This document shows positions 5,941-48,157 of a stretch of 64,000 bases of DNA, in pieces. The DNA comes from a virus. Within the stretch, counting starts at the first letter, position 1; the number at the start of each line of letters is the position of its first letter. The translations under genes were made by a program, and so were the position numbers. The notes under the pieces were generated by a model. The model was not told the DNA's origin. It saw only the letters and a list, made by a program, of their open reading frames with translations, and made no database searches. Location: positions 1 to 64,000 of the IMG/VR virus record IMGVR_UViG_3300024255_000011; one strand, written 5' to 3'.

Positions 5941-6217
5941 TATTAAGTGATGCTAGTAGGGTTTCCATTTTAGGAATAACAAAGTCACCTGGCTCAACTA
6001 TACAATAAGCATAACCAAGAACAGTACAAAGTTTTTCCAGTGATTCTATTTCGACTTCAGTCACATGTAGAGGTTGGTCTACAGCCTCCAGTTGTACATT
6101 ATAAGTGATGGCATCATCTTTGTCAATGAACATTTGAATCATTGCGTTGCCATCACCATCAAGCGTAGCAAAGGTACCAGAATCTATATCATCAATCTTT
6201 CTGGTTAGAATAAACAT
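5912..6217 (-). CDS. Conserved cyanophage protein, DUF3110-like
   Basis: 'MFIDKDDAITYNVQLEA...CTVLGY...PGDFVIP' resembles the cyanobacterial 'FE..DDA.RY..LLEA' family. Lies between gp47 and gp46. Confidence 0.65.
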   Translation of the reverse strand: MFILTRKIDDIDSGTFATLDGDGNAMIQMFIDKDDAITYNVQLEAVDQPLHVTEVEIESLEKLCTVLGYAYCIVEPGDFVIPKMETLLASLNNDRLQDTDV

Positions 6218-7257: not shown

Positions 7258-7259
7258 AA

Positions 7260-7481
7260 TCAGTTTATGTTTTCTGTCAATTTATTTTCAACTCTATCCA
7301 ACTCTAAGATTTGATTGACGTGATACTTACGCCAGTCATCAATCGCAAGTTTAAAACCAGAGATTAGATTATCACTTACTTCTGGTGACGTGTGTTGGAT
7401 GTCAGCAATAATGTCTGCAAATTGTTCTGCATAAAATTGAACTGTTCCATATTCAGGTCCAGGATAGTAAACTTTGTCCAT
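7260..7481 (-). CDS. Hypothetical protein
   Basis: 73-aa ORF in operon context, 2 nt upstream of gp47. Confidence 0.65.
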   Translation of the reverse strand: MDKVYYPGPEYGTVQFYAEQFADIIADIQHTSPEVSDNLISGFKLAIDDWRKYHVNQILELDRVENKLTENIN

Positions 7482-7498
7482 AATTAATAGAGTTGTGG

Positions 7499-8008
7499 TT
7501 ATGCCCTTCCAAACTTTTGGAGATAAGCTACATCCATATTATAATCGTCTTCTTCCTGTGTGTCAAGCTCCTCTCTAATCCCAGACTCAGCACCATCAGG
7601 TTGTTGAACATCTGTAGGGATCTCTTTCTCCATTGGTGTTCTCATGTCATCAGGGGTTACCTGATCCATTCTCTGCACCAGTTCATCCTTAGCTAAGATG
7701 GACAGATGATCAGCGTCCTTTTCAATTCTGATGTTCTTTTTATTATTATCTTTCTGTACTCTGCCTAAGGTGGCAGCAAGTTGTGCTTTCTGTTGTGGAT
7801 CTCCAGTGTCCACTTCACCATACACGTGCTCATGAGCACCTGTAGGATCCATCCCAGAAGCCCTGGCCAGATCTACTTTCTTTCTCTCTTGTGTGACAGG
7901 GTGCTCATAGTCATCCTCATTGGGACTCCCCACTGTAGGGGATGGTGGTTCCATTTCAGTCCCTAGAAGGCTTTCATATAAGTCCCACAGTTTGTTTAAT
8001 GGATCCAT
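7499..8008 (-). CDS. Hypothetical acidic protein, late-expressed
   Basis: 169-aa ORF with SD-like GAGGT, late promoter at 8090-8096 and a structured leader. Confidence 0.7.
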   Translation of the reverse strand: MDPLNKLWDLYESLLGTEMEPPSPTVGSPNEDDYEHPVTQERKKVDLARASGMDPTGAHEHVYGEVDTGDPQQKAQLAATLGRVQKDNNKKNIRIEKDADHLSILAKDELVQRMDQVTPDDMRTPMEKEIPTDVQQPDGAESGIREELDTQEEDDYNMDVAYLQKFGRA

Positions 8009-8092
8009 AATACCTCTTGGTGTGGGAGAAGGGGTCCAACAGGACCCTCACTTCTCCACCTACGGTAGCGAAAATACGATAGGCTCTGTTAT

Positions 8093-8578
8093 TTATTGCC
8101 TTCCTTGACGCTTCTGATCCACTACATCTTTGATGCTATTATATTCTGAGGAACTACCCAGTTGATCACTCTCAAAGAATTCCTCAAACCCAGATTTAGC
8201 AATAATTTTATCACAGATCTCAATCTGTTTCTTCTCTTTACCAATCCTTCTAATGAAGGCGTACCAACATACCTGTGTAAAATAAGAGAAAGGATTCTGA
8301 GACTTCTCTGGATCAAACCTGTGACAATACACCACACAATTCTCCACTGCATCCATCACCATGTCCTGTCTGTACATGTAGTTGGAGAAGTTAGGTCTCA
8401 TTGAGAGGTGCTCAGCAATGTCTAGGAAACACTTACCAATGTATCTGGGGATGATAGGTCTAGGTTGCTCAAGGTCCTTAGCCTCATCACATGCCTTTCT
8501 GAACTTTACCATTGCTGCATAGAACTCTTTATTGTCTATGAAGTTATTCTTTCTGCGCTTTGGTTTGATGTCACTCAT
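8093..8578 (-). CDS. gp55: Late-transcription sigma factor
   Basis: 'NNFIDNKEFYAAM', 'YIGKCFLDIAEHLS.RPNF.NY.Y..DMV.DAVENC', 'NPFSYFTQ...AFIRRI.KEKKQ'. Confidence 0.97.
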   Translation of the reverse strand: MSDIKPKRRKNNFIDNKEFYAAMVKFRKACDEAKDLEQPRPIIPRYIGKCFLDIAEHLSMRPNFSNYMYRQDMVMDAVENCVVYCHRFDPEKSQNPFSYFTQVCWYAFIRRIGKEKKQIEICDKIIAKSGFEEFFESDQLGSSSEYNSIKDVVDQKRQGRQ

Positions 8579-8628
8579 ATGGTCCTTTATTTGTTATTAT
8601 TATAATCCCTTTATTGAGATTAGTTAAC

Positions 8629-8694
8629 TTAACACACTTCATCATTAGTGTTATACTTGTAGTGTAACAACAAATGGGATGAGTAGCTTAGCTA
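8629..8694 (+). promoter_or_regulatory. Sigma70-type (early) promoter element, copy 1 of a duplicated 66-67 bp element
   Basis: TTAACA-17 bp-TATACT with extended -10 TG. About 88% identical to 39849-39915. Confidence 0.75.
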
Positions 8695-9116
8695 TCAGTT
8701 GATAAGTCAGGACTGCCATCAAAGATGCCCTCTAGTTTCTTTCTAAAGGAATCTATCTTATCAACAAACCCTGGATTCTTTTTGGTTTCAACCTTTCTTT
8801 TGATTGGAGAAGTTACTTTAGCAGCGATGAGAGCTTTCTCATAAAATTCAATACCGAATTTATCTAACTCTGACATCGTAACAACGTGTGTGCGATTCAC
8901 AATGGTGAGATCGTCATTAGAAAATAACATCCATCGTTTAGGAATAAGACCAGAGATTACAACTCCCTTCTCTGTGTCTATTGTAGTGTTCTCATTAATT
9001 GTTATGGGGTTAGACAATACATAAAAGTCTGTGCCATTTTCCTCTGTTGAATACACTTCTGCAAGAACTTCCTCACCAGTAATCATTTTGATTGTGGCGT
9101 GAAATGGATCTAACAT
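8688..9116 (-). CDS. Conserved T4-like hypothetical protein downstream of uvsW (Sm-like fold suspected)
   Basis: 'ATIKMITGEEVLAEV...LSNPI...PKRWMLFSNDD' pattern and position directly after uvsW. Confidence 0.7.
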   Translation of the reverse strand: MLDPFHATIKMITGEEVLAEVYSTEENGTDFYVLSNPITINENTTIDTEKGVVISGLIPKRWMLFSNDDLTIVNRTHVVTMSELDKFGIEFYEKALIAAKVTSPIKRKVETKKNPGFVDKIDSFRKKLEGIFDGSPDLSTDS

Positions 9117-10591
9117 AAATTTAAAACTCCCTCATTGGTATTTATTGCCACTTCAGAAATGCGATACTCGAAATTCTCATCACAATAATACTTGATTCTT
9201 TCTGCAAGGTGTGTCAAGGTAAAGTTATTCCTCCCTCCACTCTTTCTAAAGTCATCTGCAATATCATATAACTTTACTTTACTCTTTGACTTTGTCTTCC
9301 TCAGACCTCTGCCAATGCTCTGAAGGACACGTATACGAGACTTAGATGGAGAAGCAAAAATAACATGGTGGAGATTTTTGATATTAACACCAGTAGACAT
9401 AGTACCATAGCTACCAAGGATGATATTATTATCAGATCCTTCACACACCGAACGAACTTCCTCCCTCTTTTTAACATCCACATCTCCATGGATGAGATGA
9501 ACTGGTCTGTCAGTGATCGTATCGATAAGTTCCGCAAGTGGGATGCCATGCCCCTCCACTCTAGCGAAGAGAACCAACACGTTACCCTTGAGATCATCGG
9601 CAAGTTTGCAGATGAATTCGTTTCGTTCTTGTAGTAACCCAATTCTCTCAATCTCATCATTGTAAGTTTCGAAAACTTCTGGGGGGTGTTTGAGTTGGAT
9701 GATTTCGACTTTAAGTTTAGCAAGGAATCCCTTCTCCATTAAATCAGCAGAGGATGTGGTTTTATAAACAGGTCCAAAGTGTCCTTCTAATATTAACTTA
9801 TGAACGTTCTTTCCGTCAAGTGTACCAGTAAAACCATACCTCCACTTTGCATCAGGCATCTTCTTCATAATGCCACCCAAACACTTTGCCTTAAAGTTGT
9901 GGCACTCATCTCCTATCACCCCATCAAACTGCCTGAACCACTTCTTTTCCATACCATAGATGGATTGCCAGGTGGAAATGGTACAGGGTGCTGTGGTGTC
10001 CAGAGAGTGTCCCTGATAAATCTTATGCATATTATCCTCTTCCCAACCATAGTCCAGGAAGTCCTTATACATCTGTTCCACCAGTGACTTGGAGGGAACA
10101 ACCAACAACACTCTCTTACCAATAGACTTCAGGTATCTACAGATAGAGTAAATCATAAGAGACTTACCTGACCCTGTGGGGGACAGAATAGTCTTTCTGT
10201 GTTCCTTTAGTGCATGAAACACTGTCTCCACCTGGTACTCTCTTGGTGTTACAGAGGATATCTTATTCATAAACAACTCCACACCCTCATAGAACACCCT
10301 CTCATCCACCTCATAAGGGACTCCATAAAAAGAGTTGTCCTCAAACTCCCAAGTGTACCCATGCCTGTCTAACCACTTGCACAGTTGGTATGTGAGACCT
10401 GCTGGCATTGATTTGGTGTGAGTGGATAACAATCGCACCTTTCCATCCCAGTACTTCTTCCTGTAAGCAGGAGAAAAGGAAGCGCCCTCTACATCAAAAG
10501 AGAATGCTTCCTGTAATTCGTATAGGATGTGGGGTTCACAATCCAGAGTAATATCAATCTCGTTCTTCTTCTGAATAACGCAGTCAGTCAT
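9110..10591 (-). CDS. uvsW: UvsW SF2 RNA-DNA/DNA helicase
   Basis: SPTGSGKS, DECH, GFTGT, STGVNIKNLH, LQSIGRGLR; N-terminal 'WDGKVRL'. Confidence 0.97.
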   Translation of the reverse strand: MTDCVIQKKNEIDITLDCEPHILYELQEAFSFDVEGASFSPAYRKKYWDGKVRLLSTHTKSMPAGLTYQLCKWLDRHGYTWEFEDNSFYGVPYEVDERVFYEGVELFMNKISSVTPREYQVETVFHALKEHRKTILSPTGSGKSLMIYSICRYLKSIGKRVLLVVPSKSLVEQMYKDFLDYGWEEDNMHKIYQGHSLDTTAPCTISTWQSIYGMEKKWFRQFDGVIGDECHNFKAKCLGGIMKKMPDAKWRYGFTGTLDGKNVHKLILEGHFGPVYKTTSSADLMEKGFLAKLKVEIIQLKHPPEVFETYNDEIERIGLLQERNEFICKLADDLKGNVLVLFARVEGHGIPLAELIDTITDRPVHLIHGDVDVKKREEVRSVCEGSDNNIILGSYGTMSTGVNIKNLHHVIFASPSKSRIRVLQSIGRGLRKTKSKSKVKLYDIADDFRKSGGRNNFTLTHLAERIKYYCDENFEYRISEVAINTNEGVLNLC

Positions 10592-10622
10592 AACAAAGTG
10601 TTGCTATGACTATTTATTATGG

Positions 10623-12428
10623 TTACCAGACTCCAGTAATTATTACTTCAAGATCTGTGCCGGTAGGCCATTTGTCATGATTGGTCGCACCGGTTGAAAG
10701 AATGAGATCCGAGTCTCCATAAAACGATTCGATTTTGTTGATCTGACCTTTATATATGAGATTCTTATTCTTAGTCTGAACTGTGATCTCAGCATTATTG
10801 TAGGATCCTCTGTAGTCGCTAAATTGCTTGCCGCCTAATGTTCTCGCTCTTATTTTTCTACAATTTCCAGTCCAAACATTATATTTGTCGCCACTGGCCA
10901 AAGGACAAAAATAGTTCGCATTTATTGAAGTAGGGGACGTTGTTACCTTCCAGGTTGGGAGTGCCGGTGCTGGTGGGGAACTTACTGTAAAGGAAATCCG
11001 CTCAGTCACTGTATCTCCACCAACACCTGTGGCCTCAACGTAATATCCATACGAGCCCGCAACTGATGGCACTGCCCTATATGAACCCGAGAGATCAGTG
11101 CTGTAAGTGGTGCTGCCAGCATATAACCTAGCACTCACTGCATCTTCTGTGTCCCAATATACAGTGAAGGAGTTGCCGGTAGTAGGGCTACTAGGAGTCT
11201 TATAGAAGTTAGTGATTTTTGGTAATGGTGGTGGTGCAACAACCTTGACTGATGTAGATTGAGTCACTGTGACTCCATCAGTACCAACGGCGTTAAGAAT
11301 GTAAGTAAGAGTTCCTGTATTTCCTGGGCTGGTAAATGTGAGATTTGATTTACCAGTAAAAGATTGTACATCACCATTTGGTTGAGTAATCTCAACTGAT
11401 TTATAATCAACTACATCCCAAAAGAGTGTGTATGCATTTCCAGTAGTTACTTCACTGACGTTAATATTAAACTGATTCACCCTGGCTGGTAGACCAAAGA
11501 GTTCTTTAAACCTATCACCAGTTACTTTATAAGTTACATCATTTACATCAGTACAAACAAGGAAATCAGTGTCCAAAAGTTCTGGTAAACTAATGGGGTT
11601 ACCATCAATTTGATCAATTAAAATTTCATTTGACGCCTGAAATGAGGCAGTTGAAGTCAGTGTAAGAGTTCTATTTGACTCATTTACATCACCAATCACT
11701 CCAGTTACAGTACCACCAAACTGCTTCACTCTCATGTTAACCTTATACTTACTCATATCAGTACCTTGTGCCAATACGAGTTTTGTTGCGGTAACATTAC
11801 TCTTAAGTTTTGCTCCATCAAGGTTAATATAGTTGATAACTGCGGTACATGCTTGTCCCGCGTTGTTCTTTTGACGAATTGAAAACTCTTCAACCTGTCC
11901 AGAAAAAGGTACACTGAAAACTTCAGGCTCGGAGTCCCATGCACTTAGTTCTAATACAACAATATTGTTGATGAGCATCTGACCCAATCGTGAGGAGCTA
12001 TGGAACCCAGCTTTGATTTCGATGCTACCATATACATCAATAGGTTGAGGGAACTCAACAACTAAGTCATGTTTGATGCCATTGTTAGTGTATGACTTGA
12101 ACGAAGTACTTTCGTCTCCGTCAAACATATTCTCATACACCCTCAATTCCTGTTGTACAGGAGCAAAAGGAGGAGAGGTCTCATCTAACCTCAGCTCAGT
12201 ATTTCTATCTCTGATATAGGCATATTGTTCATAATTTAGATCTACTGTAACTGTAGAAACTGAACTAATGACATCAAGATTAAGAGGCAACTTGAATCCA
12301 TATTGAAGACCATCTCTCTCTAGGAGTAGTGTGTCATCCTGCCTCAACTTTTCCTTCAATTCAGTGGCAGGGCACCTGAATTGCTGGTCGCCTCTATTAA
12401 CCAGAAAATTAGAACTCCGAATGCCCAT
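10623..12428 (-). CDS. Putative fibre tip / adhesin: N-terminal docking motif, discoidin/CBM-like domain, two Ig-like repeats
   Basis: 'NMFDGDESTSF...VEFPQP' discoidin-like segment. Two repeats 'TTGNAYTLFWD' / 'TTGNSFTVYWD' followed by Pro linkers. Confidence 0.55.
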   Translation of the reverse strand: MGIRSSNFLVNRGDQQFRCPATELKEKLRQDDTLLLERDGLQYGFKLPLNLDVISSVSTVTVDLNYEQYAYIRDRNTELRLDETSPPFAPVQQELRVYENMFDGDESTSFKSYTNNGIKHDLVVEFPQPIDVYGSIEIKAGFHSSSRLGQMLINNIVVLELSAWDSEPEVFSVPFSGQVEEFSIRQKNNAGQACTAVINYINLDGAKLKSNVTATKLVLAQGTDMSKYKVNMRVKQFGGTVTGVIGDVNESNRTLTLTSTASFQASNEILIDQIDGNPISLPELLDTDFLVCTDVNDVTYKVTGDRFKELFGLPARVNQFNINVSEVTTGNAYTLFWDVVDYKSVEITQPNGDVQSFTGKSNLTFTSPGNTGTLTYILNAVGTDGVTVTQSTSVKVVAPPPLPKITNFYKTPSSPTTGNSFTVYWDTEDAVSARLYAGSTTYSTDLSGSYRAVPSVAGSYGYYVEATGVGGDTVTERISFTVSSPPAPALPTWKVTTSPTSINANYFCPLASGDKYNVWTGNCRKIRARTLGGKQFSDYRGSYNNAEITVQTKNKNLIYKGQINKIESFYGDSDLILSTGATNHDKWPTGTDLEVIITGVW

Positions 12429-12433
12429 AATTA

Positions 12434-12796
12434 TTAAGTGCTCAGCAGTGGTAGTGTGTTAATATTCCTTGGCATTTTTGTGTTAACTGAATCGTCAACA
12501 TATTTTTTGTTGGTGATGTGTTCATCGTCAGTGGCAACACCAGTGTAAGATACATAGTCCGGGCCACTATAAAATAAATTCTCACCATCAATATCAACAC
12601 CGGATTTCATAGCAAATCCGCCAGCAACTCTTAGAGCTACTCCAGATGATGGTTGTACGTCTACTCTACCAGTAAATTGTCCGCCTGTTTTAGGTACAAC
12701 ATTGTCTGTTTTTGCAATACCAGAATCAGTGAATGTTACATGGTAGGAGGTATCCCCCCTACCAACAAGAAGTTTATCAGAATTTTGGATAGCCAT
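12434..12796 (-). CDS. Short fibre segment
   Basis: N-term DKLLVGRG, fibre motifs 'PKTGGQFTG' and 'ITNKKYVD', C-term PRNINTLPLL. Confidence 0.65.
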   Translation of the reverse strand: MAIQNSDKLLVGRGDTSYHVTFTDSGIAKTDNVVPKTGGQFTGRVDVQPSSGVALRVAGGFAMKSGVDIDGENLFYSGPDYVSYTGVATDDEHITNKKYVDDSVNTKMPRNINTLPLLST

Positions 12797-12797
12797 A

Positions 12798-13763
12798 TCA
12801 TACAGGGAGAGCGGAAAGTGTGGTTAGATCCATTGGAACTCTAGATCCCAGATCTACTTTAGTGTAAGAGAAGGTACCATTAGAAGAATTGTAAGACAAC
12901 TCACCTTTACTTCCAGCGGTCTCAGTTACATTATCAACACTGAAGGAATCATAACTCAGTCCTCCACCAATTGCACCAACATAACTCCATACAGTACCAT
13001 TATAAGCAATAAACTCACCACCTGTGGCCCCAGCGGGAAGAGATGCCTGTACTTCTGCACCAAAGGAGGCGTCAACAGCTCCAACCCCTGTGTTTACAAA
13101 CAAAGTACCAGATGTCACATCATCTAAAGTTGGTGCGGTACCAGTGACATCAATGTTACCACTGAAGTCAAGGTTGGAGCTCAGTACAATCTCTTTAGCC
13201 TGCCACTCACCTGCTGATTCGTTGTAGTAAAGTACTTGATTGTTTGTGACGCCTGTGACTGTTACATCACTTACACCATCAAGAGTAAGAGCATCAAGAG
13301 CTGCAGCGTTTGCAGCGTCACCAGCAGCTCTGTCAATGGCTTCTTGAGTCAGATCATTACTAATCTGTTGCTCAGCTGCTTCAGCTCTGGTCTTCTCTGC
13401 CAGATCACCTGCAATTCTGTCAGCCTCTTCTTGAGTAATGTCATCAGAGAGACCAGATTCAACTGTTTGTGCTCTGGCTTTCTCAGTGGCAATGTCATCA
13501 GAGAGACCAGCCTCAGCTTGTTCTGCTCTGGCTTTCTCAGTGGCAACATCATCAGAGAGGTCAGATTCAGCTAGTTCTGCTCTGGCTTTCTCAGCAGCAA
13601 TGTCGGAAGAAAGTGCAGACTCTGCATTTTGTGCTCTAACCTTTTCTGCTTCTACAGCTGCAAGAGAGTCAGCTTCAATAGATTGTTTTACTTCGTTATA
13701 AGAAATATTATAGGATGATTGTCCTCTACCTACAAGGAGTAGGTCATTATTTTGGAGTGTCAT
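12798..13763 (-). CDS. Coiled-coil fibre segment with 18-aa repeats
   Basis: Repeats of the type AEKARAELAESDLSDDVA (54-nt period, about 13340-13660), 'LDGVSDV...NQVLYYN...WQ' motif, docking motifs at both ends. Confidence 0.7.
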   Translation of the reverse strand: MTLQNNDLLLVGRGQSSYNISYNEVKQSIEADSLAAVEAEKVRAQNAESALSSDIAAEKARAELAESDLSDDVATEKARAEQAEAGLSDDIATEKARAQTVESGLSDDITQEEADRIAGDLAEKTRAEAAEQQISNDLTQEAIDRAAGDAANAAALDALTLDGVSDVTVTGVTNNQVLYYNESAGEWQAKEIVLSSNLDFSGNIDVTGTAPTLDDVTSGTLFVNTGVGAVDASFGAEVQASLPAGATGGEFIAYNGTVWSYVGAIGGGLSYDSFSVDNVTETAGSKGELSYNSSNGTFSYTKVDLGSRVPMDLTTLSALPV

Positions 13764-13765
13764 AG

Positions 13766-14032
13766 TTAGAATCTAGATGCTGGGAGATGGTTTAGGGTAG
13801 ACAGGTTGCGTGGTACCACAACCTCTGAGGCATTAATTACAAGGTCTGTAATTGCACCAGCAATTACAGGAGTTGGTTCCTCGTCAGGTCCATTACTAAG
13901 ATAGAGTTCTGGGGCAGCTGGATCATAAAACATTTCACCAGCATTACCTTTGAACTCGTCAACTCCACGAGCACCCAACTTTTCTACTAAAAGTCTGTAT
14001 ACAGACTTAAGTGGTGTGAGTTGTGAGGCCAT
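13766..14032 (-). CDS. Small fibre adaptor protein
   Basis: 'GNAGEMFYDPAAPELYLSNG' motif and C-term VPRNLSTLNHLP. Late promoter at 14051-14057. Confidence 0.65.
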   Translation of the reverse strand: MASQLTPLKSVYRLLVEKLGARGVDEFKGNAGEMFYDPAAPELYLSNGPDEEPTPVIAGAITDLVINASEVVVPRNLSTLNHLPASRF

Positions 14033-14053
14033 AAAACCAAATGTTTCTTTTAT

Positions 14054-14254
14054 TTAGAAACCTTCGGATCTCAATTTTGTATCAATAACTTCTACATGAC
14101 TACAGGAACCCTTCCACTGGTACCAGTGGTATTTCATTTGGTCGTATGACTCAAAGGTAACTGACTTACCATTGGTAAGTGCTATTTTGTATTCGTGTCT
14201 GTCATAGTGTTTGTCACAGTACGTTGTGAATGTTTCGCCATCTTTATAGGCCAT
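14054..14254 (-). CDS. Conserved cyanophage hypothetical protein (start revised to MAYKDG)
   Basis: 'CDKHYDRHEYKI..TNGKSVTFESYDQM...WYQ' pattern. The longer ORF call overlaps uvsY. Confidence 0.6.
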   Translation of the reverse strand: MAYKDGETFTTYCDKHYDRHEYKIALTNGKSVTFESYDQMKYHWYQWKGSCSHVEVIDTKLRSEGF

Positions 14255-14316
14255 GTGAGTTCCATTGCAAAAGTTAGTAATCCAATAAAGGCAAAGATAA
14301 AAATATGTGATATCAT
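14182..14316 (-). CDS. Small membrane protein missing from the ORF track (44 aa)
   Basis: Hand-translated MISHIFIFAFIGLLTFAMELTWPIKMAKHSQRTVTNTMTDTNTK. Its ATG overlaps the uvsY stop (ATGA); hydrophobic N-terminus. Confidence 0.5.
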   Translation of the reverse strand: MISHIFIFAFIGLLTFAMELTWPIKMAKHSQRTVTNTMTDTNTK

Positions 14317-14738
14317 GTTCCGTTAACAAATCTACGCCATTCAATCATATTCTTGACATTGAATGACATTTGATGAATCTGTTTTAGAATCTCAGATAAT
14401 GAATTGAGTGTTGTCTCATACAACGCAACTTTCATTTCGACTTTATTAACAGTCTCATCAACCGCAACCCACGACGGAACCTCCGATCGAATGAGTTTGT
14501 AATTGAACGGAGCATCCTCATACATATCTGGAGTTCCTCTACCAGAATAATACAGAGTTCTAAGATGAACAAGTTTATTTTGTTCTTGCTTCGCCTTCTT
14601 AAGTAGGAGCGAGTATTCATTGTGAAGAGTAATATATTTTGAGTGTAGTTGAGGAATCTTCATGGACGTGGTATCCAACATCACATCATCAAATACACTA
14701 TCCTTGGCCCACATGTTTTGGATAGTTTCAAGGTCCAT
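14313..14738 (-). CDS. uvsY: Recombination mediator UvsY
   Basis: 'IQNMWAKDS..D...S.KIPQLHSKY...YYSGR...SFNVKNMIEWRRF'; follows gp3. Confidence 0.9.
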   Translation of the reverse strand: MDLETIQNMWAKDSVFDDVMLDTTSMKIPQLHSKYITLHNEYSLLLKKAKQEQNKLVHLRTLYYSGRGTPDMYEDAPFNYKLIRSEVPSWVAVDETVNKVEMKVALYETTLNSLSEILKQIHQMSFNVKNMIEWRRFVNGT

Positions 14739-15400
14739 TAAATCTGTACGCCCTCCTGAGAACGTCTGTAATTAGGTATCATGGAGCTGTCAGTTGATTG
14801 AGCAGCATCCCACACAAAATAATCATAGTAATTATAACGCATCACCACCTCTGCAGTAAAGTAGTTTACATCTGAAACACTAGAATCAAAATTTAGTGTG
14901 GTGAGTGAGATGGGGAAGGCATCTCTAAACACAAACTCACTGACTGGTTGGTAATTACTGGACAGAATAAACAAAGAACAATCACACTTCCACTGGTCAG
15001 GGTTGTACTTCAGTGCTGCATTGTCATCAGTTCTCTTATTAATGCTATCCAATGACCCTCTTCCATACTTAAATTCTTTACTGCTGTATGGTGTTGCAAT
15101 CTCCCTCATCCAGTCATGAACCTGGTAGTAGTTCTTCATGTTCTCATCCACCAGAAACTTGATGTACAAGTCCTCATAGTATAACTCATCACCAGGGTGG
15201 CGTAGTTTATTATACCTTGTGCCTGTATCTGCACTCTCCATAGTGATGGAAGGCACAGATGCAGACTGACAGAAGAAGTCTACCCCACGCATATTGCTAA
15301 TGGTAAACTTGAACCCAATGGGAGACAAGAAGTTTCTGTTCTCAATGGATACAAACTTCTGCTCCGGGGGCATTGAGTTGTTATTACTTTGTAATGCCAT
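14738..15400 (-). CDS. gp3: Tail tube completion / sheath stabilizer
   Basis: 'IENRNFLSPIGFKF...VDFFCQSASVPSI...PGDEL.YEDL..KFLVDENMKNY...FRDAFPISLTTLNFD'. Confidence 0.9.
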   Translation of the reverse strand: MALQSNNNSMPPEQKFVSIENRNFLSPIGFKFTISNMRGVDFFCQSASVPSITMESADTGTRYNKLRHPGDELYYEDLYIKFLVDENMKNYYQVHDWMREIATPYSSKEFKYGRGSLDSINKRTDDNAALKYNPDQWKCDCSLFILSSNYQPVSEFVFRDAFPISLTTLNFDSSVSDVNYFTAEVVMRYNYYDYFVWDAAQSTDSSMIPNYRRSQEGVQI

Positions 15401-15406
15401 ATCTTT

Positions 15407-16492
15407 TTAGGGGCATCCACAAGATCCAAAACAAGGTCTGGGTAGAACCCATGCATCACAGCCTTCGTCGAACCATGAGGAGTAAGAGAGGGTAGGCACA
15501 CACCATTCAGACAGGTCCGAGTTAAATGCTTTACAAGATTTGAACAAACTCAACATTTCCGTCACATTCGACACATCCCATTTACTAAGGTCTGACGTAA
15601 AGTGAGTCGCGTTCTGGAACATATTATTCATTAACGTCACATTCGACACATCCCAATTACTGAGATCCAAAGACAAAGAGGGGTTGTTGCAGCTGTAGAA
15701 CATGAGATCCATGTTTGTCACTTTTGACACGTCGAAACCACTAATGCCATTTTCAGTTATTTGCTTTTGGCCTTTAAACATAGCGAACATAATCGTCACC
15801 TTTGACGTGTCCCAACCACTAAGATCTTGGTTGAAAATGGCTCCCTTGTCACCAAAGAATGTATACGCCATGTTTGTCACGTTTGATGTATCATATCCAG
15901 AGACGTCTCCATTGAAAACTGGACAATTGCCGAACATTGATTGCATATTGGTCACACTAGATGTGTCAATATACTCTACTCCAATCCCAGTAAATTTCGG
16001 ACTCGTATTAACGAGTCCTTCCATACTCGTAACTTTATCAGTTTTTGTATATTCTCCAAATTCAAAATCAGGGCCGTCCGTAGGGTCGGGATCAAAATTA
16101 AATGAAAACAGACCTGATGAATCCACATTACCTACGAATACAACTTCTGCCCCCTTGGGGATCGAGCTGATCTCTCCATTATCCTGCCAATCGTCTTTGA
16201 TCTTTCTCCAAGATTTATAAGGGCCACGAATACCTAAAGAGACTTCATATCCCTTTAGTCCTACACTTTTATTAGTAACATGCCATACAATATCTTCGTT
16301 ATCCCATGGGAGAGGATCAGGTGTAGGATCTGGATCGGGATCGGCGGTCACCTTAACGTTGTAAGTAACACCCGATCTAGTGACCATCAATAAATCATCT
16401 TCTTTTAACTTATCTTTTAGTTCGTCACCCTTACAGGATGAAGGAATACCATTTCTTTGGACAGCAAATAGTAAGTCGTCGGCTTTAGTCAT
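15407..16492 (-). CDS. BspA/DUF285-type leucine-rich-repeat surface protein with N-terminal fibre-docking motif
   Basis: About 7 repeats of (W)D(T/V)S(N/K)VT.M..MF; C-terminal 'DLSEWCV...W..P.P..G.C'. Confidence 0.85.
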   Translation of the reverse strand: MTKADDLLFAVQRNGIPSSCKGDELKDKLKEDDLLMVTRSGVTYNVKVTADPDPDPTPDPLPWDNEDIVWHVTNKSVGLKGYEVSLGIRGPYKSWRKIKDDWQDNGEISSIPKGAEVVFVGNVDSSGLFSFNFDPDPTDGPDFEFGEYTKTDKVTSMEGLVNTSPKFTGIGVEYIDTSSVTNMQSMFGNCPVFNGDVSGYDTSNVTNMAYTFFGDKGAIFNQDLSGWDTSKVTIMFAMFKGQKQITENGISGFDVSKVTNMDLMFYSCNNPSLSLDLSNWDVSNVTLMNNMFQNATHFTSDLSKWDVSNVTEMLSLFKSCKAFNSDLSEWCVPTLSYSSWFDEGCDAWVLPRPCFGSCGCP

Positions 16493-16510
16493 AAGTCTAT
16501 AACTTTTTAG

Positions 16511-16642
16511 TTATTTATGAGTATCCTCCCTCAGAGTAACAACACATTTTTCCACACATTCTTTATCCTCTAAGTTGCATTCCACAACACACTCAAAGTA
16601 TTCTTCTACTGCGTCCCATGTTTGCTCGTGAGTTTTATTCAT
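16511..16642 (-). CDS. Small four-Cys protein missing from the ORF track (43 aa)
   Basis: Hand-translated MNKTHEQTWDAVEEYFECVVECNLEDKECVEKCVVTLREDTHK. It fills the gap after the gp23 terminator and has its own late promoter at 16668-16674. Confidence 0.75.
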   Translation of the reverse strand: MNKTHEQTWDAVEEYFECVVECNLEDKECVEKCVVTLREDTHK

Positions 16643-16686
16643 AAGTTTGTGTTAGTTTCAACACATTTATTTATTCACTCAGGCAT

Positions 16687-16711
16687 AAAAAAAGGAACCC
16701 CTAAGGGTTCC
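16687..16711 (-). terminator. Rho-independent terminator after gp23
   Basis: GGAACCC-TTAG-GGGTTCC followed by T7 on the - strand. Confidence 0.9.
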
Positions 16712-16734
16712 AGATGTGTTATTGAAACTTATCT

Positions 16735-18579: not shown

Positions 18580-18606
18580 TGTTCGGGGTTACCTTTCTTT
18601 TGAAAT

Positions 18607-33942: not shown

Positions 33943-34860
33943 TCAACCGCCAGCAGAGTTGTTTGCGGTAAGAGAAGCACTGATAACTGCTTCAAGTCTA
34001 ACAGCCAATTCTTCTACAGTCTCACCTACAACCACATTAGCCAATTCAGCTGCGAGTTGAGTGAGAGTCAGTCTGTAATCATCATTGGTTGCACTTGCTT
34101 TACCCAGAGCACTGTTGGCTGTGGTCTGAGCTTGACCCACATCAGTTTGAAGTGTTGCAATGTCATCTTCGTTAGTTGCAACTCTTGTAGTAAGACCTAC
34201 TACGTCATTTGACAATCCAGTGATATCATCATTGATACCATTAACACCATTTACAGCTGTCTCAAGATCAGTGATTCTGTTTTCGTGACCATTAACCTGA
34301 GTACCAAGGGCCGCAAATTCTCCAGTAATGTGAGTGTTGAGTTGCTGTCCAACATTAGCAATTGCTGCAGTGTTCTGAGCGATTGATGCAGTGTTAGTAG
34401 TACCTACACCGATAACATTGGTTACTTGAGATTCAATCTTTTGAAGAACCTGAAGGTTATTTCTGTTGATGCCATCGTTGAGGAAGGATCCTACAGCGAA
34501 GTCACCCGTGAAATAATTTGAACGACCTTTGGGTACACCAGTAAGTGCAACCAAGTTCACGATGTCAGTTGCATTCTGAGCGATGCCTGCTTCGTGATCT
34601 GCTTCAGTTTCAGCAATTAGATCGTTTACTTCTTGCTTGGTGTAAAGATTAGTATTGGCACTGGTTACTTCAACACTCACTTCACCAGTGAATCTGACAC
34701 TACCATTAAAGGTCAAGTTGTCATCAGTGATTCCACTGACGAGCTCTGTGTAGCTAAGTCTGGACGTTGTCTGGTTCTCATCATTAACAATAAACTGATC
34801 AAGACCAGTAAGTCTGTCAGCAGTTAGAACCGGAAGATTTGAAATCTTAATGCTTGCCAT
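33943..34860 (-). CDS. Coiled-coil fibre (collar/whisker-like, at the T4 wac position)
   Basis: N-term KISNLP...DQFIVND motif, long heptad segments, immediately upstream of gp13. Confidence 0.6.
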   Translation of the reverse strand: MASIKISNLPVLTADRLTGLDQFIVNDENQTTSRLSYTELVSGITDDNLTFNGSVRFTGEVSVEVTSANTNLYTKQEVNDLIAETEADHEAGIAQNATDIVNLVALTGVPKGRSNYFTGDFAVGSFLNDGINRNNLQVLQKIESQVTNVIGVGTTNTASIAQNTAAIANVGQQLNTHITGEFAALGTQVNGHENRITDLETAVNGVNGINDDITGLSNDVVGLTTRVATNEDDIATLQTDVGQAQTTANSALGKASATNDDYRLTLTQLAAELANVVVGETVEELAVRLEAVISASLTANNSAGG

Positions 34861-41967: not shown

Positions 41968-43593
41968 TCAGTAGTTGGGGAGAAGGTAGAAGTTGTTGGG
42001 TAGGAAGAAATCAACAGTTTGATGAGAGTTGGCCACCAAACTTGGCATCTTAGTAGATACCTCATCAACCCTGTTGTGTTTCTGACTTAGTGAGGTTGAC
42101 AACTCAGTGTTTGAGACGATTGATGTCAATCCAGATGCACCTATGTCAGCAGTCTTACCGCTGATTGAAATTCTCCCTTCAAGTTCCTCAACTTTGAGTG
42201 CACTGTATGTTCTGCCTGTTACAGTATTGAGTGTACTTGTAGTTACAATTTCAGGAATATCGTCATCAGTCAAGCTATCAAGTTTCTGTTTGTCTGATGC
42301 AGACATAAACCCACTATAACTTGAGTATATGTCTAGGTCACCAGTATCAGTCAGGATTACTTTTGCGTCCTTGATTGAGATGTTGTATACATTTTCATCA
42401 GTACTACTTCGTTGAGTAATTATTGAATAGTGAGGATTGCCATATCCCTCATTATTACCTGGAACATAAACAGGTACTTGAATACTTGTAATTTGTGAGT
42501 TGGAAACGCTGTCCTTGATAAGAACAAACTCATTGTATCTAAGAGTATCAATTATTTTTTCAGTCCAAATGATCTTATCATTTTTGGTTACTGTAATCGT
42601 ACCAGTTGCTGCAGTTTCGTCAATCTTTACACCGACTATTGCTTCTCCTACATTACCAATTGTTTCGTTTACAATAAAGAGTTTGTCACCATCTTTATAA
42701 GCAATATGACTTGAATTCGTTGAGATAGTTGCATTAACAACCTCACCTTGAACCATTGTCAAGTCCAGTCGCATTCCACTGCCTTGGATATTGTTGCGAC
42801 GAGGTATTGTTTCAACACCGTAACTGTAACTTTCAAGAGAAGAACTAGCAAAGTAATATCCACCAACTAATTCTCGATCATTTGATTCTCCGTCTTCATT
42901 CTGAACAAACTCAAAATCTGTTACTGCTCCAACGGAACTAACATCCGTGATCTTAACATAAACTCGATCACCTACTTCAGGTGTCTTCTGTCTAAACTCA
43001 ATAATATCATCTACTTCATAATTAAATCCACCCTGACTAATTACTGCGTCAGTAGTCCTAATGAATCCATCGATAACTGAAACCGTTAACAAAAACCCAT
43101 AAGATTTGGAGGCGTCTGTTAGATTTCTCTGTCCAGTTTCAACTCCCTCACCAAAGGTTGGGATTGTACCATTCAGTCCTCTGTAGTTATTTCCACCTTC
43201 AAACAATTCAACACTGGTAAATTCATCATCAGAAACACCTTTCCACTCAGATGTCTTCAGAGTGAGTTTGCCATCTGGATGTTCAGCTAGGTCTGGATTG
43301 ACAATATAAAAGTCACCAGTGTTGAGATTCTGTGTGTCTGCGGGTGGTTGTAGGTCTTCTGTTACCTCTCCAACAAAGTTTAGTGTGTTGGGGAAGTTAA
43401 CATCAAGGTATCCCGTTTTCTCGTCATAGACGAAGTTTTTAGATGGGAATACTTTACCTGCCACTCCACTGATCTGATCTCCCTGTTTGGCATTGGGTAC
43501 TGTCAGACCTTCAACTACTGTATTTCTCTTAGCTGTAAAATACGAGTCACCCCTTTTAACAATAAACTGATCGGTATCTTGAATAGTGGACAT
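41968..43593 (-). CDS. Fibre/structural protein
   Basis: N-term IQDTDQFIVKRG, fibre motif SGFMSASDKQKLDSL, C-term LPNNFYLLP. Confidence 0.65.
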   Translation of the reverse strand: MSTIQDTDQFIVKRGDSYFTAKRNTVVEGLTVPNAKQGDQISGVAGKVFPSKNFVYDEKTGYLDVNFPNTLNFVGEVTEDLQPPADTQNLNTGDFYIVNPDLAEHPDGKLTLKTSEWKGVSDDEFTSVELFEGGNNYRGLNGTIPTFGEGVETGQRNLTDASKSYGFLLTVSVIDGFIRTTDAVISQGGFNYEVDDIIEFRQKTPEVGDRVYVKITDVSSVGAVTDFEFVQNEDGESNDRELVGGYYFASSSLESYSYGVETIPRRNNIQGSGMRLDLTMVQGEVVNATISTNSSHIAYKDGDKLFIVNETIGNVGEAIVGVKIDETAATGTITVTKNDKIIWTEKIIDTLRYNEFVLIKDSVSNSQITSIQVPVYVPGNNEGYGNPHYSIITQRSSTDENVYNISIKDAKVILTDTGDLDIYSSYSGFMSASDKQKLDSLTDDDIPEIVTTSTLNTVTGRTYSALKVEELEGRISISGKTADIGASGLTSIVSNTELSTSLSQKHNRVDEVSTKMPSLVANSHQTVDFFLPNNFYLLPNY

Positions 43594-43946
43594 TAGAGGC
43601 TCTCCAATTCTGGAACGTTATCAAAGTTTAAAGTATGAGTGATCATTCGAACTTCTTCTTGTCCAATTATCTGTGGTCCTGGATCTTCAACATTAACACC
43701 AGTGGATGCTGCGAACTCAAGTTTAGGCCCACTTGTGCCTCCACCAGATCCACCAGAACCATCGCCACTAGGAGTACCAAAATCGAAGCTAAGTACCCAC
43801 CTTCCCACTAAGTGTCTTTCTGACACTGGGAGATCTTGTTTTTGGTCACTATCACTAGTGATGTAAGTCCAGACTTTGTATCCATCTCCTGTGGAAAGTG
43901 CCTGTCCCTCAGTGGCGGGTAATGCGACTGGGTATAAGATCGACAT
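43593..43946 (-). CDS. Small adaptor protein
   Basis: N-term YP...P..G...WTY...W anchor motif, Gly/Ser linker, C-term NFDNVPEL. Late promoter at 43965-43971. Confidence 0.6.
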   Translation of the reverse strand: MSILYPVALPATEGQALSTGDGYKVWTYITSDSDQKQDLPVSERHLVGRWVLSFDFGTPSGDGSGGSGGGTSGPKLEFAASTGVNVEDPGPQIIGQEEVRMITHTLNFDNVPELESL

Positions 43947-47935: not shown

Positions 47936-48157
47936 TTAAATCTCGGTTAAATCCTGAACATCAAAGTCGGTAATAATATTACCTTTAGATGCAATGTGAG
48001 TAATTGGTAAGTTTGCCACGAACTCTACAGAATCGAATCCGACAAGTTCCCAACGGTTCTTGCCTTCACTATACTGCCAAGTTCTGTTGATTTGGGTACC
48101 ATTTACGATGTTGGTACCATTATCAACTGAGGGGTCTGTTGGAAACGGTAGTGCCAT
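47936..48157 (-). CDS. Small adaptor protein
   Basis: N-term FPTDP..G...WQY.....W anchor motif; C-term FDVQDLTEI. Late promoter at 48174-48180. Confidence 0.65.
   Translation of the reverse strand: MALPFPTDPSVDNGTNIVNGTQINRTWQYSEGKNRWELVGFDSVEFVANLPITHIASKGNIITDFDVQDLTEI

What the first reader, a model, noticed from the sequence alone, without database searches (positions are those of the whole stretch)
10623..14032. Plug-and-socket fibre chain: a docking motif split across consecutive genes
Seen: three fibres (33943, 34909, 38984) start with an intact motif, KIS.Lp.l--(l)..D.f.V.D...(T)..isy (e.g. KISELNSL-TDLTDVDLFLVSDMETGTSRKISY). Elsewhere the motif appears in halves. First-half-like C-termini are 13766 (PRNLSTLNHL), 12798 (PMDLTTLSAL), 12434 (PRNINTLPLL), 47936 (FDVQDLTEI), 43593 (NFDNVPEL) and 41968 (PNNFYLLP). 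In all six cases the next gene transcribed starts with the second half: 12798 LQNNDLLLVGRGQSSYNISY, 12434 IQNSDKLLVGRGDTSYHVTF, 10623 SNFLVNRG, 45199 LPNDQFYVQRG, 41968 IQDTDQFIVKRG, 40686 LQSSDLLVV. ORF 10623 also has a fused internal copy (ISLPELLDTDFLVCTDVNDVTYKVT). The junctions are out of frame, so this is not readthrough. Inference: strand/domain complementation links separate trimers head-to-tail into a modular fibre whose gene order is its assembly order (13766>12798>12434>10623).
Basis: partly seen in the sequence, partly recalled or inferred. Interest (0 to 1): 0.88.

Follow-up and report, generated by a model that had tools for sequence, protein, structure and literature searches.

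The report
Split docking motif joins cyanophage fibres
In a T4-like cyanophage, neighbouring fibre genes end and begin with the two halves of one small fibre domain, which most likely lets the separate proteins click together end to end; this is predicted rather than shown, and it is a new variant of a joint already solved in a few other phages.

Summary
In this 109-kb T4-like cyanomyovirus contig, six proteins end in a peptide of the form [ND]-hydrophobic-x-x-L-x-x-hydrophobic. Each is followed within -1 to 19 nt, always out of frame, by one of exactly six genes that start with only the D-x-L-L-V hairpin half of a ~40-aa domain. That domain is intact at the N-terminus of at least six other fibre proteins of the genome.

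The four-gene chain 13766>12798>12434>10623 is a late-promoter-led insertion between uvsY and uvsW. It is conserved in five metagenome contigs, where shafts are swapped between near-invariant ends. The ends are kept at protein level (11 synonymous against 4 non-synonymous codon changes in one plug).

A 3+3 complex model places the last 15 residues of 12798 on residues 1-25 of 12434 (ipSAE 0.82, best control 0.28). Cultured relatives carry matching numbers of sockets and plugs (S-CRM01 2/2, S-N03 1/1, S-CREM2 1/1, S-CAM7 0/0). In S-CREM2 both proteins are in the published virion proteome.

Adjacency is not obligatory, so gene order is not always assembly order. Binding is unproven. Solved precedents exist (Tuc2009 BppU-BppA; KP32 RBP1-RBP2), and this scan has noted similar split joints on other phage DNA. 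I class it as a new variant of a known kind.

The parts
14050..14057 (-). Late-promoter-like box CTAAATAA, 18 nt upstream of the start of 13766. There is no further copy inside the chain.
   Evidence: There are 8 copies on the - strand of the window against 2.3 expected (0 of 100 shuffles reach 8). All lie just upstream of late structural genes; sequence read.
13766..14032 (-). Chain initiator, 88 aa: an N-terminal anchor-type domain plus C-terminal socket A. It has no plug.
   Evidence: ORF. Its N-terminal ~50 aa resemble the N-terminus of a 351-aa S-CAM7 fibre-like protein and phrog_36222. It is conserved in L005, L007, L008 and L010.
13769..13813 (-). Socket A: the last 15 residues of the 88-aa protein (P-R-N-L-S-T-L-N-H-L-P plus a 4-aa tail).
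   Evidence: Against L010, over 12 codons: 2 identical, 5 synonymous, 5 non-synonymous, with the L-x-x-L-x-x-L-P frame kept.
12798..13763 (-). Link 1, 321 aa: plug A', a coiled-coil shaft, a beta-rich C-terminal part and socket B.
   Evidence: It has coiled-coil-type matches to Vibrio phage tail-fibre proteins.
13698..13763 (-). Plug A': residues 1-22 of link 1 (second half of the motif only).
   Evidence: Conserved in 5 contigs.
12801..12845 (-). Socket B: residues 307-321 of link 1.
   Evidence: Residues 307-309, 311-314 and 316-321 form the modelled interface. The motif is kept, with 4 synonymous and 5-7 non-synonymous codon changes, in L007 and L010.
12434..12796 (-). Link 2, 120 aa: plug B', a short shaft and socket C.
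   Evidence: Homologues of 120-358 aa keep both ends while the middle differs.
12731..12796 (-). Plug B': residues 1-22 of link 2.
   Evidence: Residues 1-3, 7-20 and 24-25 form the modelled interface. Against the 505-aa protein of L007, over 20 codons: 5 identical, 11 synonymous, 4 non-synonymous.
12437..12478 (-). Socket C: the last 14 residues of link 2.
   Evidence: Invariant from position 107 on in 4 homologues that are 49-84% identical overall. Also present on P0005, P0006 and P0008.
10623..12428 (-). Tip protein, 601 aa: a double plug C', a beta-sandwich domain, an internal intact motif, two Ig/FN3-like domains and a poorly modelled C-terminal domain. It has no socket.
   Evidence: AF2 model, mean pLDDT 78. 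Foldseek matches are to jelly-roll plus Ig ectodomains and adhesins. Homologues of ~313 aa stop right after the internal motif.
12291..12428 (-). Plug C': hairpin-helix-hairpin, residues 1-46 of the tip.
   Evidence: Strands 7-12, 15-20, 32-38 and 41-45, and helix 21-27, in the model. The same double module starts 15407.
11496..11597 (-). Internal intact copy of the motif in the tip protein, residues 278-311.
   Evidence: Strands 289-293 and 299-303, helix 304-311. Weak match to the intact-motif profile.
47939..47968 (-). Socket of the 73-aa adaptor 47936-48157; the next gene, 45199, starts with a plug at 47869-47931.
   Evidence: spacing as in 38984.
43596..43628 (-). Weaker socket of the 117-aa adaptor 43593-43946; the next gene, 41968, starts with a plug at 43537-43593.
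41971..41997 (-). Weakest socket-like C-terminus (protein 41968, 541 aa); the next gene, 40686, starts with a plug at 41892-41948.
34726..34860 (-). Intact N-terminal motif of 33943. The same motif is at 36007-36141 (gene 34909) and 39635-39769 (gene 38984).
   Evidence: A profile of these finds 309 cluster representatives, nearly all at residues 1-45.
16349..16492 (-). Double plug at the N-terminus of the DUF285 protein 15407-16492, with no adjacent socket gene.

Best explanation
The four late genes 13766>12798>12434>10623 encode one segmented virion fibre. The fibre has an 88-aa anchor piece, a 321-aa coiled-coil link, a 120-aa link and a 601-aa adhesin-like tip.

Each joint is non-covalent. 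The last 10-15 residues of the upstream protein (the 'socket' peptide, [ND]-phi-x-x-L-x-x-phi) lie along the N-terminal beta-hairpin of the downstream protein (the 'plug', D-x-L-L-V-G-R-G-x-x-x-Y-x-V). Together the two pieces have the sequence pattern and the spacing of a ~40-aa domain that is widespread and uncharacterised, and that normally sits intact at the N-terminus of phage fibre proteins. The joint therefore looks like that domain nicked in the loop between its first segment and its hairpin.

The three joints are of three sequence types (A/A', B/B', C/C'). No link carries its own cognate ends, which would give an ordered chain. Shafts and tips can be exchanged between conserved ends, and an extra tip with the same plug can compete for one socket (contig L007).

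Shown here:
- the sequence pattern and its statistics;
- its conservation at protein level;
- co-occurrence of sockets and plugs in other phages;
- presence of the corresponding proteins in S-CREM2 virions.

Inferred:
- binding itself (one complex model only);
- type specificity;
- trimeric state;
- where the anchor piece sits on the virion.
For: (1) Pattern and statistics. There are 6 socket C-termini in 100 ORFs against 0.52 expected. All six are followed at -1 to 19 nt by the only six plug-type N-termini. A strict pattern built from intact N-termini alone finds only two other sites in 33,118 aa, and both are chain C-termini.

(2) Same nick position. The residues between the L-x-x-L segment and the conserved hydrophobic residue four before the D number 4 in intact 33943. 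They are 2+2 across the 12798/12434 junction.

(3) Conservation.
- The chain sits at the same uvsY/uvsW site in five metagenome contigs. In S-CRM01 uvsY and uvsW are adjacent; in S-CREM2 only two short hypothetical ORFs (228 and 198 nt) lie between them. Neither phage has fibre genes there.
- Homologues of link 2 range from 120 to 358 aa and have near-invariant ends.
- The plug of the 505-aa L007 protein differs from that of 12434 by 11 synonymous and 4 non-synonymous codons out of 20. This is protein-level constraint, not DNA-level constraint.

(4) Complex model.
- Three copies of 12798[262-321] were modelled with three copies of 12434[1-95].
- The score was 0.82 and the best of 3 controls was 0.28.
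- That mark was reached by 58 of 80 solved complexes and 2 of 110 mismatched pairs. These counts hold only roughly, because my own alignments and a 3+3 design were used.
- The runs agree in at least 93% of contacts, and the partner's pLDDT is at least 81.
- The interface is residues 307-321 against residues 1-3, 7-20 and 24-25, which are exactly the two half-motifs.
- No solved relative was found by sequence or fold, so a pass from memory is unlikely.

(5) Other genomes, scanned whole.
- S-CRM01 has 2 sockets and 2 plugs; one pair is adjacent with a 27-nt gap.
- S-N03 has 1 and 1.
- S-CREM2 has 1 and 1.
- S-CAM7 has none of either.

(6) Virion proteome. S-CREM2 ORF115 (plug, 56 unique peptides) and ORF128 (socket, 93 unique peptides) are in the virion proteome (PMC10665884, Table 3).

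(7) Expression signal. A late-promoter-like box lies only in front of the first gene of the chain.
Against: - No experiment shows binding. Only one pair was modelled, and no non-cognate pair or intact-domain trimer could be run (the cap is one complex job).
- The AF2 monomer model of the intact domain shows the hairpin and a helix but leaves the first half as coil at pLDDT 66-79. 'Rebuilding the intact fold' is therefore inferred from sequence only.
- Some plug-type proteins have no neighbouring socket: 15407; the 120-aa gene of L007, which follows a socket-less gene; S-N03 gp015; and S-CREM2 ORF115.
- The intact motif also occurs at the C-terminus of ~313-aa homologues of the tip and as internal tandem repeats (P0089, P0149). 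It is therefore not always a joint.
- In L009 the ends of the 120-aa gene are 100% and 98% identical in DNA to the window while the middle is about 44% identical in protein. Part of the end conservation therefore reflects recent recombination.
- Types A' and B' are similar (about 50% identity), so strict order is uncertain.
- The generalised socket pattern was written after seeing the six cases.
Confidence: 0.65

Rival explanations
1. The conserved gene ends are only recombination handles. They would be short homology arms that let phages swap fibre cassettes, and the resemblance to the intact motif would be a by-product of common descent, with no socket-plug contact.
For: - The L009 copy of the 120-aa gene has a replaced middle (44% identity) between ends that are 100% and 98% identical in DNA.
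- Link-2 homologues of 120-358 aa share both ends.
- P0007 fuses a link-2 body to a link-1 body.
Against: - Divergent copies keep the peptide while the codons differ (11 synonymous against 4 non-synonymous changes).
- In S-N03 and S-CREM2 the socket and plug genes are 24-31 kb apart, so there is no junction to act as a handle.
- The complex model passes its controls at exactly these residues.
- The two roles are compatible with each other.
Confidence: 0.12
2. Plug and socket do not bind each other. Each would bind a third component. For example, the N-terminal hairpin could dock on a baseplate or collar protein, and the C-terminal peptide could be a chaperone or assembly signal.
For: - Plug proteins occur without an adjacent socket (15407, S-N03 gp015, S-CREM2 ORF115, the L007 120-aa gene).
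- The intact domain is an N-terminal module of hundreds of fibre families and presumably anchors them to something.
- S-CRM01 has a tail-fibre-assembly-like gene in the same cluster.
Against: - Sockets and plugs occur in equal numbers in four genomes and are both absent in a fifth.
- Adjacency is 6 of 6 in this genome.
- The halves match one intact motif with the right spacing.
- The complex model supports a direct contact.
Confidence: 0.13
3. The neighbouring ORFs are translated as one fused protein, by frameshifting, read-through or bypassing, so that the motif is intact in the product.
For: The spacers are very short (1-5 nt, or 4-nt overlaps), and the joined sequence mimics the intact motif.
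Against: - Every junction has a stop codon and its own ATG.
- The frame relation differs between junctions (+1 or +2) and, for junction B, between contigs (window +1, L007 +2).
- In other phages the partner genes are kilobases apart.
- Termination-reinitiation coupling explains the short spacers.
Confidence: 0.03
4. Chance resemblance of short low-information peptides.
For: The motifs are short, and two of the six C-termini (43593, 41968) are weak matches.
Against: -: the strict pattern hits nowhere else in 33,118 aa.
- 6 sockets observed against 0.52 expected, all paired with the six plug genes.
- The pattern is conserved in five contigs and recurs in three cultured phages.
Confidence: 0.02

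Closest known systems
Lactococcus phage Tuc2009 baseplate tripod, BppU-BppA joint (crystal structure, PMC4742702; read)
   Same: The products of consecutive genes are joined because a ~25-residue C-terminal extension of the upstream protein completes a beta-sheet of a domain of the next protein. It is a non-covalent, modular add-on to the receptor-binding apparatus.
   Different: - There the extension is a hairpin that completes an Ig-like sandwich at the C-terminus of BppA. Here a single C-terminal peptide would lie on an N-terminal hairpin.
- There is no sequence or fold relation.
- Here the joints form a linear chain of three typed joints in a myovirus.
- This joint is not solved.
Branched receptor-binding proteins of Klebsiella podophages KP32/K11/KP34: the T4gp10-like branching domain of RBP1 plus the N-terminal conserved docking peptide of RBP2 (PMC13352976, PMC6872550)
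   Same: A short conserved terminal peptide of one RBP docks on a domain of the RBP encoded next to it. The peptide is portable and allows tips to be exchanged.
   Different: - There the peptide is N-terminal on the downstream protein and the domain is internal in the upstream protein. Here the peptide is C-terminal on the upstream protein and the folded element is N-terminal on the downstream one.
- No T4gp10-like domain was detected here.
- Here peptide plus hairpin equal a split copy of one domain.
T4 long tail fibre, gp34-gp35-gp36-gp37 (PMC3004832, PMC5537660; established knowledge)
   Same: A fibre built from separately encoded segments joined end to end, with the genes contiguous and in spatial order, in a T4-type phage.
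   Different: - No homology was detected.
- The T4 joints are not known to be a split domain.
- T4 needs a monomeric hinge protein and chaperones.
- This chain lies in a different genome position (the uvsY/uvsW gap).
Donor-strand complementation in chaperone-usher pili
   Same: Subunits polymerise because a terminal strand of one subunit fills a gap in the fold of the next.
   Different: Pilins have an Ig fold that lacks its last strand, and they need a chaperone and an usher. Here the element is a hairpin plus helix, probably in a trimeric fibre, with no dedicated machinery evident.
Docking domains of modular polyketide and non-ribosomal peptide synthases (own knowledge)
   Same: Matched C-terminal and N-terminal short modules of different types set the order in which separately encoded subunits line up, usually co-linear with gene order.
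   Different: This is an analogy of logic only: helical docking domains in cytoplasmic enzymes, with no relation in sequence or structure.

Membership tests
Intact ~40-aa N-terminal fibre domain (I-S-x-L-P ... D-x-phi-phi-V ...; no Pfam family) | The socket and plug halves, joined, match the domain's conserved positions and spacing. | tested here: met
   Alignment of six intact copies and of 42 family members (S8, L10 and D20 are nearly invariant). Junction spacing was read. The strict pattern from intact copies hits two chain C-termini only. The profile matches the second half in plug proteins of S-CREM2 and in 10623.
Intact ~40-aa N-terminal fibre domain | The two halves in trans adopt the same three-dimensional arrangement as the intact domain. 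| tested here: inconclusive
   The complex model puts the socket along the second strand of the hairpin. The monomer model of the intact domain leaves the first half unstructured. A trimer of the intact domain could not be folded.
Tuc2009 BppU-BppA type joint | A C-terminal extension of the upstream gene product completes a beta-sheet of the next gene product. | tested here: inconclusive
   Only a model exists: the interface is 307-321 with 1-25, and the closest pairs are 316-319 with 17-20. No coordinates were available to confirm sheet hydrogen bonding.
Tuc2009 BppU-BppA type joint | Homology to BppU or BppA. | tested here: not met
   No Pfam, PHROG or PDB sequence match to these proteins.
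KP32-type branched RBP system | A T4gp10-like branching domain in the primary RBP. | tested here: not met
   Pfam scans of the chain proteins and of further fibre proteins of this genome and related contigs gave no such domain at E <= 0.1 or E <= 0.01.
KP32-type branched RBP system | An N-terminal conserved peptide on the secondary RBP that is needed for incorporation. | not testable with these tools
   Needs deletion mutants. The N-terminal 22 residues are conserved.
T4 long tail fibre proteins gp34-gp37 | Sequence homology to gp34, gp35, gp36 or gp37 families. | tested here: not met
   No Pfam or PHROG hit to these families. tblastn against 50,697 phage records gave only coiled-coil matches.
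Chaperone-usher donor-strand complementation | An incomplete Ig-like pilin fold plus a periplasmic chaperone and an usher. | tested here: not met
   The plug is a hairpin, or hairpin-helix-hairpin. This is a phage virion context.
Virion structural proteins | Detected in purified particles. | tested here: inconclusive
   Shown for analogous plug and socket proteins of S-CREM2 (ORF115 and ORF128; PMC10665884 Table 3), not for this uncultured phage. A late-promoter-like box lies in front of the chain.

The most novel reading that the evidence does not exclude
The widespread intact N-terminal fibre domain would be the cis form of a general trans joint. At least 309 cluster representatives carry this domain, and it has no Pfam family and no solved structure. 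On this reading, cluster-C cyanomyoviruses, and possibly many other phages, use a small code of typed socket peptides and plug hairpins (A/A', B/B', C/C' and adaptor types). The code would program ordered, branchable and exchangeable fibre assemblies, so that fibre architecture and tip choice could be read from gene termini alone and re-wired by swapping 15-25-residue ends.
Probability: 0.3. Interest if true: 0.75.

Novelty: new variant of a known kind. Interest (0 to 1): 0.6.

Why it matters
T4-like cyanophages carry tens of kilobases of unannotated fibre-like genes, and no one can say how their products are arranged on the virion. A readable connector rule would help in three ways.
- It would turn gene termini into an assembly map, saying which piece sits on which.
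- It would explain how shafts and tips are exchanged in nature without breaking assembly.
- It would point to small portable tags for attaching new receptor-binding tips in laboratory phage-host systems.

The idea is directly testable in cultured phages that carry one or two such pairs (S-CRM01, S-N03, S-CREM2). It also adds a further, structurally different case to the few known phage joints made by sharing a domain between two proteins.

Tried and rejected
- DNA and protein searches of the chain against 50,697 phage records found nothing for 10623, 47936 or 41968. For 12798 they found only coiled-coil matches.
- Four IMG/VR protein scans found no relatives: the 120-aa protein, its alignment, the 314-aa tip homologue and 41968. 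A DNA-pattern scan of IMG/VR for the B' plug also found none.
The genomic context of P0002-P0021, including the 192-kb contig that holds P0013, could therefore not be seen.
- No solved structure was found for the intact domain by sequence, by Foldseek or by VIA-align. The best VIA-align match had Z 5.2, was dominated by the long helix and is not meaningful. The ESM Atlas gives only unnamed viral clusters.
- An 8-column scoring matrix for the halves was too noisy to find sockets in other genomes. It was replaced by anchored patterns.
- A MAFFT alignment of plugs mixed with full-length proteins was unusable.
- Literature searches for strand complementation or donor strands in tail fibres gave no description of this motif.
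- Frameshift or read-through fusion was rejected because the frames vary.
It was redone with short anchors.

Full report
WHAT THE WINDOW IS

The window is the first 64 kb of a 108,850-bp IMG/VR contig. The contig is a T4-like cyanomyovirus. Its large terminase is 75-79% identical to those of Synechococcus phages S-N03, S-H34, S-B68, S-CRM01 and S-CREM2. Nearly all genes are on the - strand.

The finding covers four tightly packed genes:
- 13766-14032 (88 aa)
- 12798-13763 (321 aa)
- 12434-12796 (120 aa)
- 10623-12428 (601 aa)

They lie between uvsY (14313-14738, plus one small ORF) and uvsW (9110-10591). In S-CRM01 uvsY and uvsW are adjacent. In S-CREM2 only two short hypothetical ORFs (228 and 198 nt) lie between them. 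Neither phage has fibre genes there, so the chain is an inserted island.

A box CTAAATAA lies 18 nt upstream of the first gene. The window has 8 such boxes on the - strand against 2.3 expected, all in front of late structural genes such as the sheath and scaffold genes. There is none inside the chain. I read this as one late operon. That is an inference from the motif only.

CHECKING THE OBSERVATION

Intact motif. Three proteins (33943, 34909, 38984) start with it: I-S-x-L-P-x-L, a 2-4-residue linker, a hydrophobic residue, then D-x-phi-phi-V, a turn, and a second strand ending in an aromatic or hydrophobic pair. The rest of the genome adds three more N-terminal copies, at 70050, 72355 and 96886. 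10623 has an internal copy at residues 278-311.

Half motifs. Six proteins start with the second half only, and the gene before each of them ends in a first-half-like peptide. The spacers are 2, 1, 5, 4, -1 and 19 nt, never in frame.

Spacing. Joining the last residues of 12798 to the first residues of 12434 puts the conserved D at position 16 and the V at position 20, counted from the first hydrophobic residue of the peptide. The intact motifs of 33943 and 34909 have exactly this spacing. 47936 plus 45199 reproduces the shorter spacing of 38984.

Chance is excluded.
- A pattern written only from the five intact N-termini hits 7 times in 33,118 residues. Five hits are the seeds. The other two are the last 12 residues of 13766 and 12434.
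- A generalised C-terminal pattern hits 6 of 100 ORFs against 0.52 expected. The next gene of all six is one of the only six plug-type N-termini. That last pattern was written after seeing the cases, so its specificity counts, not its sensitivity.
- I rate three junctions strong, one good (47936>45199) and two weak (43593>41968, 41968>40686).

CONSERVATION ELSEWHERE

The 120-aa protein has few relatives, but they are telling. Four proteins of 120-141 aa are 49-84% identical overall. They are invariant over the first 22 residues and from residue 107 to the end. Three proteins of 232-358 aa carry the same two ends around much longer, different shafts.

A metagenome scan gave five further contigs with the chain at the same uvsY/uvsW site. 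In all of them the three joint types are kept:
- Type A: a peptide with a four-to-six-residue tail after L-P, followed by a plug beginning M-T/S-L-Q-N-N-D.
- Type B: followed by M-A/T-I-x-x-x-D-K-L-L.
- Type C: ending L-L-S-T, followed by the double hairpin of the tip.

- L007 has a fifth gene (505 aa) between the 322-aa and 120-aa genes. It has a type-B' plug, but its C-terminus is not a socket, and a 41-nt spacer follows it. Two plug proteins would therefore compete for one socket. That points to alternative tips or branching rather than a strict one-to-one chain.
- In L009 the 120-aa gene has a replaced middle (about 44% identity), while its first 66 nt are identical and its last 60 nt differ by one base from the window. 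This is a recent cassette swap by recombination within the ends.

End conservation is therefore partly recombinational. It is also selective. The plug of the 505-aa protein and that of 12434 differ in 15 of 20 codons, and 11 of those changes are synonymous. The sockets of L007 and L010 keep the L-x-x-L-x-x-L-P frame through 4-5 synonymous and 5-7 non-synonymous changes.

P0007 joins a link-2 body to a link-1 body between an A'-like plug and a B socket. Bodies can therefore fuse without a joint.

THE INTACT DOMAIN

A profile of six intact copies found 309 cluster representatives at E <= 0.001 among 1.84 billion. Nearly all matches are at residues 1-45 of proteins of 44 to 1,666 aa. A few proteins carry it as internal tandem repeats (P0089, P0149).

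The domain has no Pfam family. It has no solved relative by sequence and no meaningful fold match.

An AF2 monomer model of the first 80 residues of 38984 has mean pLDDT 88. It gives two strands (21-25, 32-36) and a long helix. The first half is coil at pLDDT 66-79. The first half is nevertheless the best-conserved part of the family (S8 and L10 nearly invariant in 42 sequences). It probably packs only in the oligomer. I could not test that.

Homologues of the N-terminal half of 10623 stop right after the intact motif (about 313 aa; one of them is on a 192-kb contig). The motif is therefore a small domain that can be N-terminal, internal or C-terminal, and 10623 is a fusion.

DOES THE SOCKET BIND THE PLUG?

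Result:
- The score was 0.82, and the best of three controls was 0.28.
- That mark was reached by 58 of 80 solved complexes and 2 of 110 mismatched pairs in the tool's calibration. The calibration holds only roughly here, because my own alignments and a 3+3 design were used.
- The runs agree in at least 93% of contacts, and the partner's pLDDT is at least 81.
- The confident interface is residues 307-309, 311-314 and 316-321 of 12798 against residues 1-3, 7-20 and 24-25 of 12434. These are the two half-motifs and nothing else.
- The tightest pairs put 316-319 along 17-20 (the second hairpin strand) and L313 against 8-10 and 19. Some contacts go to a neighbouring plug chain, which suggests an intertwined trimeric joint.

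Since no similar solved complex was found, the pass is unlikely to come from memory. This supports binding and does not show it. Non-cognate pairs were not tested.

OTHER GENOMES

I fetched four cultured relatives whole and called ORFs by script.

- S-CRM01 has two socket C-termini and two plug-only fibre proteins. The sockets are on a 205-aa and an 82-aa adaptor-like protein, both ending in I-x-x-L-x-x-L-P. The plug proteins are 254 and 325 aa. The 82-aa and 254-aa genes are adjacent (27-nt gap), and the other two are 3 kb apart.
- S-N03 has one socket (a 94-aa adaptor) and one plug protein (gp015, annotated as tail fiber protein). They are about 31 kb apart on the circular map.
- S-CREM2 has one socket and one plug protein, 24 kb apart. 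The socket is on ORF128 (609 aa), which also starts with an intact motif. The plug protein is ORF115 (795 aa).
- S-CAM7 has neither.

Expected chance C-terminal matches are 0.3-1.0 per genome, and a few hydrophobic C-termini of small membrane-like proteins are false hits. Equal counts in four genomes and joint absence in a fifth fit a cognate pair. Adjacency is common but not required.

The published S-CREM2 virion proteome lists ORF115 with 56 unique peptides and ORF128 with 93 (PMC10665884, Table 3). Proteins of both kinds are therefore in particles.

WHAT THE PIECES LOOK LIKE

- 13766 has an N-terminal ~50-aa module shared with the N-terminus of a 351-aa S-CAM7 protein. It is presumably the end that sits on the virion.
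- 12798 is a coiled coil followed by a beta-rich part.
- 12434 is a short shaft ending in the K-K-Y-V-D-D motif common in fibres.
- 10623 was modelled at mean pLDDT 78. It has a hairpin-helix-hairpin N-terminus, a beta-sandwich (residues 52-260), the internal motif, two Ig/FN3-like domains and an uncertain C-terminal domain. It resembles jelly-roll plus Ig ectodomains and bacterial adhesins. It is probably the host-binding tip.

RIVALS

- Pure recombination handles: this explains L009 and the swapped shafts. It does not explain the synonymous-rich conservation, the non-adjacent pairs or the complex model.
- Binding of each motif to a third partner: this is the most serious rival, because several plug proteins lack a neighbouring socket. 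It leaves the equal counts and the split-motif match unexplained.
- Translational fusion: rejected, because every junction has a stop and an ATG, and the frame offset differs between junctions and contigs.
- Chance: rejected by the counts.

COMPARISON WITH WHAT IS KNOWN

The principle has solved or tested precedents.
- In Tuc2009 a 25-residue C-terminal hairpin of BppU completes a beta-sheet of BppA, which is encoded by the next gene (PMC4742702). I took the lead to this paper from earlier notes of this scan and read it myself.
- The T4 long tail fibre is the classic end-to-end chain with co-linear genes.

None of these families is homologous to the proteins here, and the polarity and the fold element differ. 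Earlier agents of this scan have also reported split-domain joints in fibres of other uncultured phages, so the general idea is recurring.

What is new here:
- this particular domain;
- three typed joints in series;
- exchange of shafts between fixed ends;
- the presence of one or two pairs in cultured, testable cyanophages.

VERDICT

I class the finding as a new variant of a known kind, with interest 0.6.

Noticed in passing
window 14050-14057, 19726-19733, 25758-25765, 29560-29567, 31445-31452, 33881-33888, 36235-36242, 57975-57982 (all - strand): CTAAATAA occurs 8 times against 2.3 expected, each just upstream of a late structural gene. It is a likely late-promoter core, a variant of the T4 late-promoter box TATAAATA.
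   Followed up: partly
window 15407-16492 (-): A DUF285 (BspA-like repeat) protein (Pfam E 3e-53) starts with the same hairpin-helix-hairpin module as the tip 10623, but has no socket gene next to it. It sits between the major capsid gene and gp3, where contigs L005 and L007 have an HNH-like 118-aa ORF instead.
   Followed up: partly
window 43975-44024: A perfect 25-nt tandem duplication spans the stop codon of gene 43997-45199.
   Followed up: no
L014 (S-N03 5710-23781) and L015 (S-CREM2 64000-76000): Other shared C-terminal peptides occur on fibre-like proteins. Five S-N03 proteins end in A-D/E-A-E-L, and three end in a T-W-T-P-x-N-G-A-T-V motif. Three consecutive S-CREM2 proteins end in one shared ~20-aa motif (P-N/D-G-x-x-Y/F/W-R-I/V-T ...). 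These may be further connector or cap modules.
   Followed up: no
G000:C1:96886-98478 (-), locus L012: This 530-aa protein has an intact-like motif at its N-terminus and a second-half hairpin motif as its very last 20 residues.
   Followed up: no
window 16735-18579 (-): The gp23-like major capsid ORF is 614 aa here and 605-608 aa in L005/L007. It is 456-469 aa in S-CREM2 and S-CRM01. This may be an insertion or an extension.
   Followed up: no
L009 225-590 compared with window 12434-12796: A natural cassette swap: the middle of the 120-aa gene is replaced (about 44% identity), while 66 nt at the start and 60 nt at the end are identical or differ by one base.
   Followed up: yes
G000:C1:70050-73446 (-), locus L011: Two intact-motif proteins (363 and 762 aa) have x-T-L-P near their C-termini. 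These may be further, divergent sockets. They were not captured by my patterns.
   Followed up: no
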